A stretch of 62,697 nucleotides of DNA, filler included, from Mycoplasmatota bacterium (GTDB taxonomy: Bacteria; Bacillota_I; Bacilli_A; RF39; UBA660), in NCBI GenBank assembly GCA_012727915.1. It is 4 parts of 4 records of this genome, joined end to end, with 100 filler letters (N's around TTAATTAATTAA, not from the genome) between each part and the next. Parts side by side here need not be neighbours in the genome. Positions count along the whole stretch, not along the records: positions 1 to 21,980 come from JAAYGD010000040.1; 3 more parts are not named here. One strand, 5' to 3'. Position 1 is the first letter of the stretch; each line of letters starts with the position of its first letter. Made by a program: the position numbers. This document shows, piece after piece, positions 15,001 through 21,000 of this stretch.

Positions 15001-18000
15001 CTTTAACTGCATCATATTTAGCAAAAGAACCTTCAATCGAAGTAAAAAATCCAGATCTAGTTATTTGCACTTTAGCAAAAGGTGGAAAGCTAGATATGGA
15101 ATTAACAGTTGGAAGAGGAAAAGGATATGTTGTTGCTGAAGAAGTAAAAAGAATATTAAATAATGATGAAATAGGAGTTATTGCAATTGATGCTATTTAT
15201 TCTCCAATAGAAAGAGTAAATTACGATGTTGAAAAAGCTCGTGTAGGTCATAATAATAATTATGATAAATTAATAATAGAAATTTGGACTAATGGTTCGG
15301 TTTTACCTCAAGAAGCTCTTAGCGAAGCAGCAAGTATATTGATGGTTCAATTGGACTATATAGATAATCCAGAATTTACAGAATCAGTAAAAGGATTAAT
15401 GAAACAAAAGAATGAAGACCCTAAGCAAAAACTATTAAAAGCTACTATTGATGATTTAGAATTGTCAGTAAGAGCATATAATTGTTTAAAAAGATCAAAT
15501 ATTTTTACAGTACAAGATTTAGTTAATTATACAGAAGATGAAATGTCAAAAATTAGAAATCTTGGAAAAAAATCTTTGAAAGAAGTAACTGAGAAAGTTA
15601 AAGAAATGGGTCTATCTTTCAAAAATGAAGATTAAGGAGAAAAAATATGGCATATAGAAAATTAGGAGTTACAACTAAACATAGAAAATCAATGTTATCA
15701 AATATGACTATCGATTTAGTTATGAACGAAAGTATTACAACTACTGAAACTAGAGCTAAAGAAGTAAGAAAATTTTTAGATAGAATGATTACTTATGCTA
15801 AAAAAGATACTTTAGTAAATAGAAGAAAAATATTAGCGTTTTTTAAAAACGATAACGAAGCTACAAAAAAAGTATTTGAACTAGCGAAACGTTATGAAGA
15901 TAGAAAAGGTGGATATACTTCTATATTGAAGTTAGAAGAAAGAAAAGGAGATGGTGCCTTATTGGTACTCATCAAATTGGTATAAAACGACAATATGTCG
16001 TTTTTCTTTTATTAGTATAAATTATAGTATATAATAAAATATATAAAGGAGAATTATGAAAGCATTAATAACAGGAGCATCTTCTGGAATAGGAAGAGAT
16101 ATAGCATTTAATTTATCTGAAAGAGGTTATGATTTAATTTTAGTATCTAAAACAATGGATAATAAGTTGTTAAAAGAATTTAAAACTAAAGTTAAATATA
16201 TTTCTTGTGATTTATCAAATATTAATGAAGTATATAAATTATACGAAAAAACAAAAGCTGAAGATATTGATGTTTTAGTAAATAATGCGGGATTCGGATT
16301 ATTTGGAGAGTTTTATAATTCTTCATTAGATAAAGAAATAGAAATGATCAATTTAAATATAAACGCAGTTCATATATTAACTAAGCTCTATCTTAAAGAT
16401 TTTAGAATAAAGAATAATGGTTATATTTTAAATGTTTCATCTTCTGCTGCTTTTCAAGCCGGTCCATTAATGTCAACATATTATAGTACAAAAGCATATG
16501 TATTAAGATTAACAACTTCGATATATGAGGAATTAAGAAGAGAAAAATCTAATATTGGAATATCTGTTCTTTGCCCTGGTCCAGTAGATACTAATTTTAA
16601 TAAGGTTGCAAATGTAAAATTTGATTTAAAATCAGTATCAAGTAAATATGTTGCAGATTATACTATAAAAAAGATGTTTAAAAAGAAATTAATAATTATT
16701 CCTACATTTTATATGAAAACAATAATAATTTTGAGTAAGGTATTATCAATAAAATTGTTATTAAAAGCAACTTATAATATTCAAAACAAAAAAAGATAAA
16801 AAAGTAGTCTTTTTTTGTTTTTTTATGTATAATATACTATTATCAATGGGGGTATTTTGATGAATAATATTATTTCAATTAATAACCTTGATCATTTCTA
16901 CAATAAAAAGATTATTTTTAAAAATTTTTCTATTGATATTGAAGATGGTAGCTGGACAACTATAGTTGGCCCAAATTCATCAGGGAAAACTACACTAGTA
17001 TATTTACTCGCGGGTTTAATTAAGAATAATAATATTAAATATTATAATATAAAAGATAGAAAAAAAGATATAGGTATATTATTTGATAATCCTAGAAATA
17101 ATTTTATTACTAATACAGTAAAAGATGAACTATTATTGTCTTTTAATTATTCAAATTCTTCTAAGAAGGATTTCGATGATAAAATTGAAGATATTATAGA
17201 TTTATTAAAATTAGAAAATTTACTTTATAAAGATCCAATGACTTTAAGTGGTGGAGAATTGCAAAGAGTATCTTTAGGATTAATATTAATTTATAATCCA
17301 AAAATACTTATAATGGATGATGCATTTTCAATGATAAGTAATAAAGATAAGCAAGATTTAATTAGAGTAATAAAAAGATACAAAAAAGATAATAATATGA
17401 CTATAATTAATTTTACAGATGATTTAGAAGAATCTTTTGGAACAAATAGATTGGTTATCATAAATAAAGGAAAAATTGTAATAGATGGCAAACCAAAAGA
17501 TGTAATGAAAAACGATACGATGATTAATAGACTTGGAATAGAAATACCCTTTATTGTTGATTTATCTAGTAAGTTAAAATTATATGGTCTAATAGATGAT
17601 ATATATTTTGACGAAGAAACGTTGGTGAATGATATATGGAAATAATATTTAATGCTGTTTCGTTTAATTATAATGTGGGTCTTATTAATGAAGAGCAAGT
17701 TTTAAAAAATATTAATTTGTCTTTTGAAAGCGGAAAAATATATGGAATTACAGGAAAATCTGGTAGTGGAAAAACAACCTTAATTCAATTGATAAAAGGA
17801 GTTATATTGCCAACAAGTGGTAACATAGTAATTGACAAAAAAATAGTAAATAAAAGTTCAAAATTTTATGAAAACAAAAAAATTGGTTATGTTCCACAAT
17901 TTAGTGAGGATTATTTTTTGGAAGATTCAGTTGACAAAGAATTAGGATATATTGTGGGTAATAATACTTATATAAAATTAAATTCCTTAAATATGGTTGG

Positions 18001-21000
18001 GTTATCTGAAGATTATATGAATAAAAAAATAAATGAATTAAGTTTTAGCGATAAAAGACTTATTTCTATTGCGGCCACTTTAACATATGCTCCAAGAGTA
18101 TTAATTTTAGATGAACCGGGTTTAGGATTAGATAAATTTAATAAAGAAAAACTTATTAAACTTTTAAAAAATATAAATAATAAGTATAAAGTAACTATTA
18201 TAATAGTAAGTCATGATATTAACTTATTAAACCAAATAGTTTCTGAAATAATTATTTTGAAGGACGGAAAAATATTGTCTCAAGGTAGTAAAGAGGATAT
18301 TTTTAAAAAGACTTCTTTATTAAATAAAAACAACATTGAAAGCCCAAAAATATTAGATTTTATAAATTTAGTTCAAAAAGAAAAAAACATTAAGTTAGGA
18401 AGTTATGATGATGTTAGAGATTTAATTAAGGCGGTGTATAGAAATGTTTAAAGATAATGTTGCAAAATATTATAATATAAATTCAATACTAAATGAAACA
18501 AAACCAATTATTAAAATACTTTCATTGTTGTTGTTTTTTATATTTTTTTTGATTGCAAATAATATTGTTTTTTCAATAATAATGTTGTTATTTTCATTGA
18601 TATTAGGTGTTTTATCTAAAGTCCCTTTTAAACTTTATTTATATAGATCAATTCCAATAATAATAATAAATATTATAATATTAATTTTGGGTATATTGTT
18701 TAATATAAATACTTTTAATTTTTTATTAAAAAGTATATCTTTCTCAATATATTATTCATCATATATATATTCCACAAAAATATCGGACACAAATAAAGGA
18801 GTGTTCGATATACTAAATATAATTGATTTTTATAATCCAAGAGTATTAAGTTTTTTTACAATATTAATTCATTTTATTTCAATCGTGTTTGTTGAATTTA
18901 TAAAGGTAATTAATATTCAAATAAAAAAAGGAAAAGTTCAAAAAATGGATAAACTAATTGTTTATACTTATAGATTAGTTAAAGGTAAAATCAAAATAAT
19001 AAGTAACAATTTTGAATTGAAAAAATATAATTTCAAATATATAGAAAACAATAGTGTTTATTCGAGTTTAACTATTATTGGGTCTCATTTAATGTTGTTT
19101 TTTGTGTATTTATTAGGTAAAATATAGTATAATGAAAAAGGTGATAATATGAAAACAAAAAAACAATTAAAAAAAGAAGAAGATAAAAGAAAAAAAGAAT
19201 TAAAGAAATCATTGGAATATAATCAATCTATAATAAATACTATTATTACTTTAGTAATTGTAGTAGTTATTTTTGTTGGTTTTTATTTATTAACTGATTA
19301 TATATTAAATAAATCTAGAAAATTGAATTATAAAGAGCCAGAAGAAAAGGAAGCAACAATTCAATATAAAGAAATATTGGCTAGTCAAGTATTTGATCAA
19401 AATGATGAAGAATATTATGTTTTGTTTTATAATTTTGATGGAAATGATGCTGCATATTATAATCAAATAGTTAGTACTACAGAATTAAAATTATATACTG
19501 TAAATATTAATAATCCTTTTAACAAGAATATAGTTTCAGAAAAAACCAATAAAAATGCTCAAAATTATAATGATTTAAGAGTAAAAGAAGCAACTATAAT
19601 AAAAATTAATAATGGAAAAAATGTATTTTATTTTGAAGGTAATTTGTTGTATATAAAAGAAAATTTAAAATAAAACTTATTTTATAATTTTAAAAAATAT
19701 GTTATTATATTAATAAGATGTGAGGGAGTTGTATGACAAGTAAAGAAAATAGATCTAGATTAATAGAGTTAATGTTTGTTGTATTAGTATCTACTGTAGT
19801 AGGTATGGTTAGTGGTGGAGCCGCTATTTTCACTATGTTAGATGTGAAAGAACCAGAATATAGTTATGTTGAAAATAATTCGGATTTATCTGAAGTTAAT
19901 TCTGTTTATGAAGATATTATAAGTAAATATTATAAAGTAGTAGATAAAGATGCTTTAATAACTGGAGCAATAGATGGTATGATTTCTGTATTGGGAGATC
20001 CTAATTCGTCATATTTTGATAATGAAGAAGCTGCATCTTTTAATGATAGATTAAATGGAAAATATGTGGGTGTTGGTTTAGAGATAATGGCAGATGGAAC
20101 TGGTAAAATACTAGTAGTTGGAATATTTGAAGGTTCACCTGCATCAAAAAGTAAAATTAAAGAGGGAGACTATATATTAGAAGTAGATGGTGTTCCTGTA
20201 TCTGGAATTACTGCTGAAGAAACGGCATCTAAAATAAAAAGAGAACTTGGTGAAGAAGCTGTATTAACTATTGAAAGAGATGGTGAAATATTTAAAGAAA
20301 CTATTGCCTCTGGAAATATAGTTATAAAGTCTGTTGAGAGTCAAATATTTAAAAAGAATAACAAAAATGTTGGTTATATTAAATTAGATATATTTGCAGC
20401 TAATACTGAAGAACAATTTACTGAAGAGTTAAAAAAATTAGAAAAACAAAAAATTAACTCATTAATTATTGATGTTAGAAATAATTCTGGAGGGTATTTA
20501 ACTTCAGTAACTGACATTTTAGAAAGATTCTTACCAAAGGGCACAATATTATATAAAACAAGAGATGCAGAAGGTACTATTGATAGATTTGATACAACTT
20601 CTGAAAAAAGAAGTTATAAAGTAGTAGTATTAACAAATGAAGTAAGTGCTTCAGCATCAGAAATACTTGCGGTTACATTGTCAGAAAAGTATGGAGCGAT
20701 TCTTGTTGGTAAAAAAACTTATGGTAAAGGAACCGTTCAACAAGTATTAAATACAGCATCAGGAGGATTTGCAAAAATAACTACTCAAGAATGGTTATCT
20801 CCAGAAGGTAATGAAATAGATAAAGTTGGAGTTGTTCCAAAGTATGATGTGGATATGGATTATAATAAATATGATCCAGCTAAAGCAGAGACGGACACTC
20901 AATTGCAAAAAGCATTAGAGGTTATTGTAAAGTAACCTCTTTTTTATTGCATTATTTTTATAAAATGTTTATAATTGATACATAGATTGGTGGATTGTAT

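What a model noticed while it worked through the whole genome (the two positions that open the first line are those of the whole stretch)
16860..19127. Flavoenzymes without flavin cofactor synthesis: no riboflavin kinase or FAD synthetase in this genus, no FAD synthetase [...]
The genome encodes at least eight FMN/FAD enzymes (MurB, MnmG, ThyX-like, RnfC, three thioredoxin-reductase-like proteins, an aminoacetone-oxidase-family protein, photolyase) but neither riboflavin synthesis nor the bifunctional RibF that turns riboflavin into FMN and FAD. I read this as direct uptake of FMN and FAD, perhaps through the ECF-type transporter g00316-g00318, or use of an unrecognised FMN adenylyltransferase among its three cytidylyltransferase-like proteins. 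New would be family-wide dependence on preformed FAD in a non-intracellular bacterium and a concrete additive for culture attempts.
Evidence so far: pfam.tsv lacks FAD_syn and Flavokinase. HMM searches: PF01687 Flavokinase 0 of 7 genomes of the genus; PF06574 FAD_syn 0 of 41 sampled UBA660 genomes (35 of them >=90% complete), 10 of 14 controls ring. Flavoenzymes: g00486 MurB, g00772 MnmG, g00947, g00691, g00531, g00873, g00214, g00084, g00415/g00426. ECF ATPases g00316, g00317 and the membrane protein g00318 on C23. CTP_transf_like proteins g00365, g00459, g00710.
(Added by a program. Inside this text positions count along the whole contig: they may not be those of the stretch shown here. "Call 12" and the like, gene names such as g00115 and contig names such as C1 are that model's own, and its searches are not shown. 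The text may have been shortened before it was handed on; [...] marks where a part breaks off. The agent that wrote the report below was given it as the finding of a first reader that could run no searches.)

Follow-up and report, generated by a model that had tools for sequence, protein, structure and literature searches.

The report
Bacterial family cannot make FAD
A large uncultured family of small-genome Bacilli has lost the enzyme that turns vitamin B2 into FMN and FAD yet keeps FAD-dependent enzymes, so it probably takes finished cofactors from other cells, as already described for Parcubacteria and Rickettsia; the transporter flagged here is probably not the importer.

Summary
The loss is real and family-wide. 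Both RibF domains occur in 1 of 201 near-complete family genomes, on a probable contaminant contig, while MurB occurs in 92 of 101. In 25 other families of the class the kinase occurs in 240 of 244 genomes. No archaeal RibK, eukaryote-type FAD synthase or unassigned HIGH-motif nucleotidyltransferase was found in five genomes. Import of finished FAD/FMN is the best reading (0.72). Parallel gaps (MetK missing in 67 of 101; no CoaD/CoaE beside PFOR) fit a broader finished-cofactor dependence. The flagged ECF is probably not the family's importer. No RibU or other S component was found in this genome, its EcfT has lost both motif arginines, and some relatives lack EcfT or Walker A. In 20 of 81 relatives the module goes with EetB, the published FAD-export S component, plus ApbE and flavinylated Rnf. 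The same paradox was published for Parcubacteria in 2015, so this is a new lineage of a known kind. This species occurs in digesters, landfill and wastewater, so the donor is probably microbial. Adding FAD/FMN and looking for a host cell are direct tests.

The parts
15647..15985 (+). rplQ (L17), end of the ribosomal-protein operon that precedes the ECF genes
   Evidence: sequence and position after rpoA; name from recall of the family
16056..16799 (+). short-chain dehydrogenase between rplQ and ecfA1, also present in several relatives
   Evidence: Pfam adh_short 1e-37
16857..17645 (+). EcfA1 ATPase. Walker A GPNSSGKT and signature LSGGE are present; Q-loop is D, Walker B is DD (no catalytic Glu), and the H-switch is lost
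   Evidence: best model TIGR04520, below cut-off; motifs; dN/dS 0.06 on 233 codons
17636..18451 (+). EcfA2 ATPase. Walker A, Walker B DE and H-switch are intact; the signature is degenerate (LSFSD). With EcfA1 this leaves one predicted active site
   Evidence: best model TIGR04521, below cut-off; dN/dS 0.15
18444..19127 (+). EcfT, 227 aa against about 250 in most relatives; both conserved Arg motifs changed to Lys (QIKKG, ELKKY)
   Evidence: TIGR02454 2.4e-6; family profile, which includes it, 1e-50; profile matches solved EcfT 4hzu at 1.8e-52; motifs; dN/dS 0.14
60021..60437 (+). It lies on another contig, C27
   Evidence: TIGR01518 182 bits, cut-off 165; PDB 1coz 2.5e-53; next to gpsA

Best explanation
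The family lost ribF early (shown: absence and an emptied truB-rpsO slot). It still needs FAD and FMN for MurB, MnmG, TrxB, Dus and others (shown by genes and motifs). It therefore takes up finished FAD, and FMN either directly or by splitting FAD (inferred), from neighbouring microbial cells or their lysate. This looks like part of a wider dependence on finished adenosine cofactors (CoA in G000, SAM in two thirds of genomes, probably NAD in some). The importer is unidentified. The core AbgT-like and YfcC/DcuC-like carriers are candidates only because they are conserved. The flagged ECF module is not the family-wide importer: in 20 of 81 relatives it most likely works with EetB to pass FAD out to ApbE for Rnf flavinylation (inferred from co-occurrence and the Listeria data). 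In G000 it survives without that partner, still under purifying selection, with an unknown job.
For: RibF domains in 1 of 201 family genomes, against MurB in 92 of 101 and the kinase in 240 of 244 genomes of 25 other families. The one ribF sits on a 4.1-kb contig with a second truB only 39% identical to the native one; near-identical RibF lies on 242-407 kb contigs of other Bacilli records. truB abuts rpsO in G097's native locus and in a Ca. Coprovivens record. In G000 the slot holds a DUF2207 gene, bridged by single contigs in two further runs. RibK 0 of 5; PAPS-reductase-family hits in 3 of 5, the one scanned being TilS; HIGH-motif proteins all assignable, and none in G128 or G116. MetK in 34 of 101; CoaE 0 of 5 although G000 has PFOR. 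EetB in 20 of 81: the same 20 have the best-scoring, long RnfD and all 20 have EcfT. Precedents: PMC4508563, PMC5615194, PMC9060500.
Against: No importer was identified and no uptake measured. The G000 ECF genes are under purifying selection, so an unrecognised S component cannot be excluded. Twenty relatives keep an FAD exporter, which implies spare cytosolic FAD and is easier to explain if they make it. A Listeria mutant needing FMN/FAD could not grow in mouse gut, so free FAD may be scarce outside cells. Alternative enzymes were tested in five genomes only. CoA import rests on HMM absence; a P-loop kinase of unclear role exists.
Confidence: 0.72

Rival explanations
1. The family makes FMN and FAD with non-homologous enzymes that these profiles cannot see.
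For: 20 of 81 genomes keep an FAD-export S component with ApbE, implying cytosolic surplus. A GalU-like nucleotidyltransferase is common (57 of 81) and follows truB in G128 and G056. Earlier scan notes report unusual RFK plus RibL pairs in Patescibacteria (unchecked notes).
Against: No bacterial or archaeal kinase fold found by profile. Two near-complete genomes have no HIGH-motif protein. The GalU-like protein is missing from 24 of 81, including 13 of the 20 EetB genomes, and usually lies between pcrA and ligA. Parallel losses of MetK and CoaE suggest import, not replacement.
Confidence: 0.13
2. The flagged ECF imports FAD, either with an unrecognised S component or with EetB working inward.
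For: ECF import of FMN/FAD is established in Listeria, and its T subunits are interchangeable for import. ecfA1 is present in 15 of 15 loci examined. G000's genes are under purifying selection and keep one predicted ATP site.
Against: No RibU-like hit: the four over-cut-off S components in 151 genomes are FolT-like with their own ATPase and T. No S candidate among G000's membrane proteins. In five relatives EcfA2 lacks Walker A and EcfA1 the catalytic Glu, and two of them have no ecfT in the slot, yet all lack ribF. S-component direction was strict in Listeria. No FMN riboswitch found.
Confidence: 0.13
3. The absence is an artefact of incomplete bins or insensitive search.
For: All genomes are drafts, 90-100% complete.
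Against: The same search finds MurB in 92 of 101 and the kinase in 240 of 244 genomes of other families, including small genomes. The slot is contiguous in independent runs.
Confidence: 0.02

Closest known systems
Parcubacteria (OD1), Nelson and Stegen 2015, PMC4508563 (passages read)
   Same: No ribKL/ribF, no riboflavin synthesis, no riboflavin transporter, no riboswitch, yet murB and trxB kept; not known to be intracellular.
   Different: Here a Bacilli family whose sister families keep RibF, so an independent loss. A quarter of genomes also keep FAD export, ApbE and flavinylated Rnf.
Rickettsia, Driscoll 2017, PMC5615194 (passages read)
   Same: No RibF; inferred import of FMN, FAD and dephospho-CoA; import of NAD and SAM; MetK often lost; flavin importer unknown.
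   Different: Rickettsia lives in eukaryotic cytosol; this species is found in digesters, landfill and wastewater.
Listeria RibU-EcfT-EcfA-EcfA' importer, PMC9060500 (passages read)
   Same: ECF uptake of FMN and FAD; A, A' and T genes present.
   Different: No RibU found here; Listeria keeps RibC/RibF; the G000 T lacks both arginines.
Listeria EetB-FmnA FAD exporter (PF07456), PMC9973259 (passages read)
   Same: In 20 of 81 relatives: EetB beside apbE and NusG_II, with Rnf targets and EcfA/A'/T.
   Different: These cells cannot make the FAD they would export. G000 has lost EetB, ApbE, RnfE and RnfA.
Phytoplasmas, PMC11857868 (passages read)
   Same: ribF lost in most groups of a related small-genome lineage.
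   Different: Wall-less parasites of plant phloem and insects.

Membership tests
RibF-less lineages that keep flavoenzymes (Parcubacteria/Rickettsia type) | no riboflavin kinase and no FMN adenylyltransferase | tested here: met
   alternatives in 5 genomes:
RibF-less lineages that keep flavoenzymes (Parcubacteria/Rickettsia type) | no riboflavin synthesis | tested here: met
   lumazine synthase only, 0 of 5
RibF-less lineages that keep flavoenzymes (Parcubacteria/Rickettsia type) | MurB, TrxB and other flavoenzymes kept | tested here: met
   MurB 92 of 101
RibF-less lineages that keep flavoenzymes (Parcubacteria/Rickettsia type) | life on or in a host cell; measured FAD uptake | not testable with these tools
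   only hints: 10 prepilin-type proteins, a T2SSE/PilB-type ATPase
RibU-type ECF flavin importer | EcfA, EcfA' and EcfT genes | tested here: met
RibU-type ECF flavin importer | RibU S component | tested here: not met
RibU-type ECF flavin importer | both EcfT Arg motifs and two intact ATP sites | tested here: not met
EetB-type ECF FAD exporter | PF07456 S component beside apbE, in G000 | tested here: not met
EetB-type ECF FAD exporter | PF07456 beside apbE with flavinylation targets, in relatives | tested here: met
   20 of 81; ApbE-like ORF in 15 of 20 loci, ATPL-like motif in 14 of 16 RnfD; Pfam check
EetB-type ECF FAD exporter | EetB binds this EcfT; direction of transport | not tested
   no complex prediction was obtained; direction needs experiment
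Archaeal RibL FAD synthase | small HIGH-motif protein not assignable to TagD, NadD or CoaD | tested here: not met
   window 60021-60437 is TagD; the same in G018 and G040

The most novel reading that the evidence does not exclude
UBA660/RF39 are Bacilli that converged on the Patescibacteria way of life: attached by pili to other microbes, they draw finished FAD, CoA, SAM and NAD through a conserved AbgT-like or YfcC-like carrier. A quarter of them re-export borrowed FAD through EetB to flavinylate Rnf, and the ECF ATPase pair persists in others as a catalytically dead scaffold with a second job.
Probability: 0.3. Interest if true: 0.85.

Novelty: new member of a known kind. Interest (0 to 1): 0.58.

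Why it matters
RF39 is a common uncultured gut and digester lineage, linked to chicken body weight (PMC13155120). Riboflavin in a medium would be useless to it. FAD/FMN, probably with CoA and SAM, or a donor cell would be needed, which is directly testable. A Listeria strain made to need FMN/FAD cannot grow in the gut lumen, so the loss argues for close contact with other cells. The FAD importer is unknown in Rickettsia and Parcubacteria too; this family offers a short candidate list.

Tried and rejected
Gene in the ribF slot as a diverged RibF: it is DUF2207_C.

TagD, NadD-like and PRK13670 proteins as FMNAT: all assigned.

GalU-like nucleotidyltransferase as a universal FMNAT: missing in 24 of 81.

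PnuC-family carrier (C44) as flavin importer: in G040 a PnuC-family gene sits beside nadR, and Pnu carriers take unphosphorylated vitamins (recalled).

My first reading that EcfT is simply absent from 45 of 81 genomes was too strong. Short membrane proteins occupy the slot in G128 (weak hit, 7e-6), G008 and G067 (position only).

ECF as a dead remnant in G000: dN/dS 0.06-0.15 (one genome pair).

FMN riboswitch: none by motif scan of the genome (this scan had no positive control), nor by Rfam on 142 kb of G000 and 78 kb of relatives' loci.

Atlas look-ups added nothing beyond Pfam for the two carriers.

Motif regexes for housekeeping enzymes were unreliable (they missed MetK and ThyX) and are not used as evidence of absence.

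No RNA holder listed. No complex prediction was obtained. No earlier scan note on this genome.
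Full report
Scope. The window joins parts of four contigs; the flagged genes lie on C23 of G000 (873 kb, 93.8% complete, 0.23% contaminated). The finding concerns an absence, so most tests ran on the genome and its family. The only named close record I saw was Ca. Coprovivens (TruB 55% identical); its place in UBA660 is recalled.

The absence. G000 has no FAD_syn hit over cut-off and no Flavokinase hit. 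A 17-sequence RibF profile run unfiltered over six frames finds only NadD-like and TagD. In 201 family genomes at least 90% complete (181 genera), each domain passes its cut-off once, in the same gene, G097:C31; two further Flavokinase hits were below cut-off in unrelated ORFs. That 4.1-kb contig carries a second truB, 39% identical to G097's native one and no closer to family TruBs than to outside ones. Near-identical RibF sits on long contigs of other Bacilli records. Contamination is likely; recent transfer is not excluded.

Controls. MurB is found in 92 of 101 family genomes. In a class sample of 300 scored genomes the kinase is in 0 of 37 family genomes and 240 of 244 genomes of 25 other families; three more families lack it (f21 0 of 15, f25 0 of 2, f6 0 of 1). 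f21 keeps the adenylyltransferase half in 4 of 4 tested; the f6 genome lacks both.

The slot. ribF normally lies between truB and rpsO (recalled; seen as truB-ribF). In G000 a DUF2207 gene fills it, and single contigs from two other studies bridge rpsO to truB. In G097's native locus and the Coprovivens record truB abuts rpsO.

The demand. MurB, MnmG, two TrxB-like proteins with CxxC, another FAD-dependent oxidoreductase, an aminoacetone-oxidase-family protein, Dus, RnfC, ThyX-like and a photolyase piece are confirmed.

Alternative synthesis. These tests used five genomes (G000, G018, G128, G040, G116). Archaeal RibK 0 of 5 and lumazine synthase 0 of 5. PAPS-reductase-family hits in 3 of 5: G000's is TilS, two are of the same size, and a weak 235-aa hit in G116 stayed unnamed. 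HIGH-motif proteins: three in G000 (TagD; NadD-like at 108.8 bits against a 112.45 cut-off, within an nrtR-cinA-nadD-nadE-pncB-pncA cluster; PRK13670), four in G040, two in G018, none in G128 or G116. A GalU-like enzyme is in 57 of 81 and so is not universal.

The ECF genes. They are ecfA1, ecfA2 and ecfT at the usual place after rplQ. EcfA1 lacks the catalytic Glu, the Q-loop Gln and the His switch, and EcfA2 has a degenerate signature, leaving one predicted site. EcfT has Lys at both Arg motifs that most relatives keep. All three are under purifying selection against G005 (dN/dS 0.06-0.15; one pair). No S component was found. I listed 61 membrane proteins, scanned about half of them in Pfam and judged the rest by eye; three S-component families and my own S profile were negative for G000.

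The ECF in relatives. In one sample of 81 genomes, EcfT matches in 36 (31 strongly) and PF07456 in 20. The same 20 have the best-scoring RnfD, a long form with a fused FMN-binding domain and flavinylation motifs (ATPL-like 14 of 16, SGAT-like 9 of 16). All 20 have EcfT. Kin are not independent, but a TruA tree of 20 labelled genomes needs at least three changes of the label (single gene, weak). PF07456 is EetB, the FAD-export S component that co-localises with apbE and Rnf; an ApbE-like ORF was recovered beside it in 15 of 20 loci. G000 lacks EetB, ApbE, RnfE and RnfA, and its RnfD is short and motif-less. In five further genomes EcfA2 has lost Walker A and EcfA1 the catalytic Glu; two have no ecfT in the slot; the C-terminal helices persist. 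So the module is intact where FAD export is kept and decays elsewhere, and it cannot be the family's ATP-driven importer.

Wider pattern. MetK is in 34 of 101 (G000 has it). CoaE is in 0 of 5 and no CoaD was among the HIGH-motif hits, yet G000 has PFOR. No NadD-type protein was found in 3 of 5. Two carriers of unknown substrate, AbgT-like and YfcC/DcuC-like, lie among housekeeping genes and were found in 5 of 5 other genomes. The ECF stretch occurs in 20 runs of 9 studies from landfill, digester, wastewater, bioreactor and manure, so the donor for this species is probably microbial. Ten prepilin-type proteins and a T2SSE ATPase fit attachment but also competence.

Literature. Passages were read for PMC4508563 (same paradox in Parcubacteria), PMC5615194, PMC9060500, PMC9973259, PMC11857868, PMC13155120, PMC6784871, PMC10868615, PMC7301438 and bioRxiv 10.64898/2026.02.13.705874; I read the first half of PMC12306168. 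The RF39 papers report many auxotrophies; word searches of their main texts found no statement on RibF or FAD synthesis. Searches listed no paper on ribF loss in this family, judged from titles and abstracts. The library is partial. The supplement of PMC10868615 could not be read, and only three text supplements of PMC6784871 were searched, so ortholog tables there may already show the gap.

Verdict. Import of finished flavin cofactors is likely (0.72), by an unidentified route. The category is known; the lineage, the FAD exporter in cells that cannot make FAD, and the persisting dead ATPase pair were not found in my searches. Interest 0.58.

Noticed in passing
L194-L198 (G128, G008, G067, G018, G116, upstream of truA): The ecfA1-ecfA2 pair persists as open frames with catalytic motifs lost and C-terminal helices kept, even without ecfT; possibly a second, non-transport role.
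   Followed up: partly
L113-L128: Compact rnfC-rnfD(+FMN-binding domain)-rnfE-rnfA operon with an RnfD-RnfG-like fusion; some carry two SGAT motifs (585-589 aa).
   Followed up: partly
G000 C59:10062-12378 (L035): Only rnfC and a short rnfD remain, directly upstream of hrcA-grpE-dnaK-dnaJ.
   Followed up: partly
family sample: SAM synthetase missing in 67 of 101 genomes; about a third of the hits score much lower and may be a second MetK type.
   Followed up: no
L024-L027 (family f21); G205 (f6): f21 keeps a 266-277 aa FAD synthetase with a decayed kinase half (FMN dependence); the f6 genome lacks both halves; f25 lacks the kinase.
   Followed up: partly
G000 C16:1856-2635 (L044): Heliorhodopsin beside DUF2177 and DUF1295 genes.
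   Followed up: no
G000 C75:2607-7226, C76:2646-4040 (L215, L216): A 1539-aa FtsK/EssC-like ATPase and a T2SSE/PilB ATPase; ten prepilin-type proteins of up to 1234 aa, some with Ig-like or glycine-rich domains.
   Followed up: partly
L054-L057: FolT-type S component with its own ATPase and T gene in 4 of 151 genomes.
   Followed up: partly
G000 C21:32620-33168 (L210): P-loop kinase with a deoxynucleotide-monophosphate-kinase match; could stand in for CoaE.
   Followed up: no
L165-L188: GalU-like nucleotidyltransferase, usually between pcrA and ligA, present in 57 of 81 but missing from 13 of the 20 EetB genomes.
   Followed up: partly
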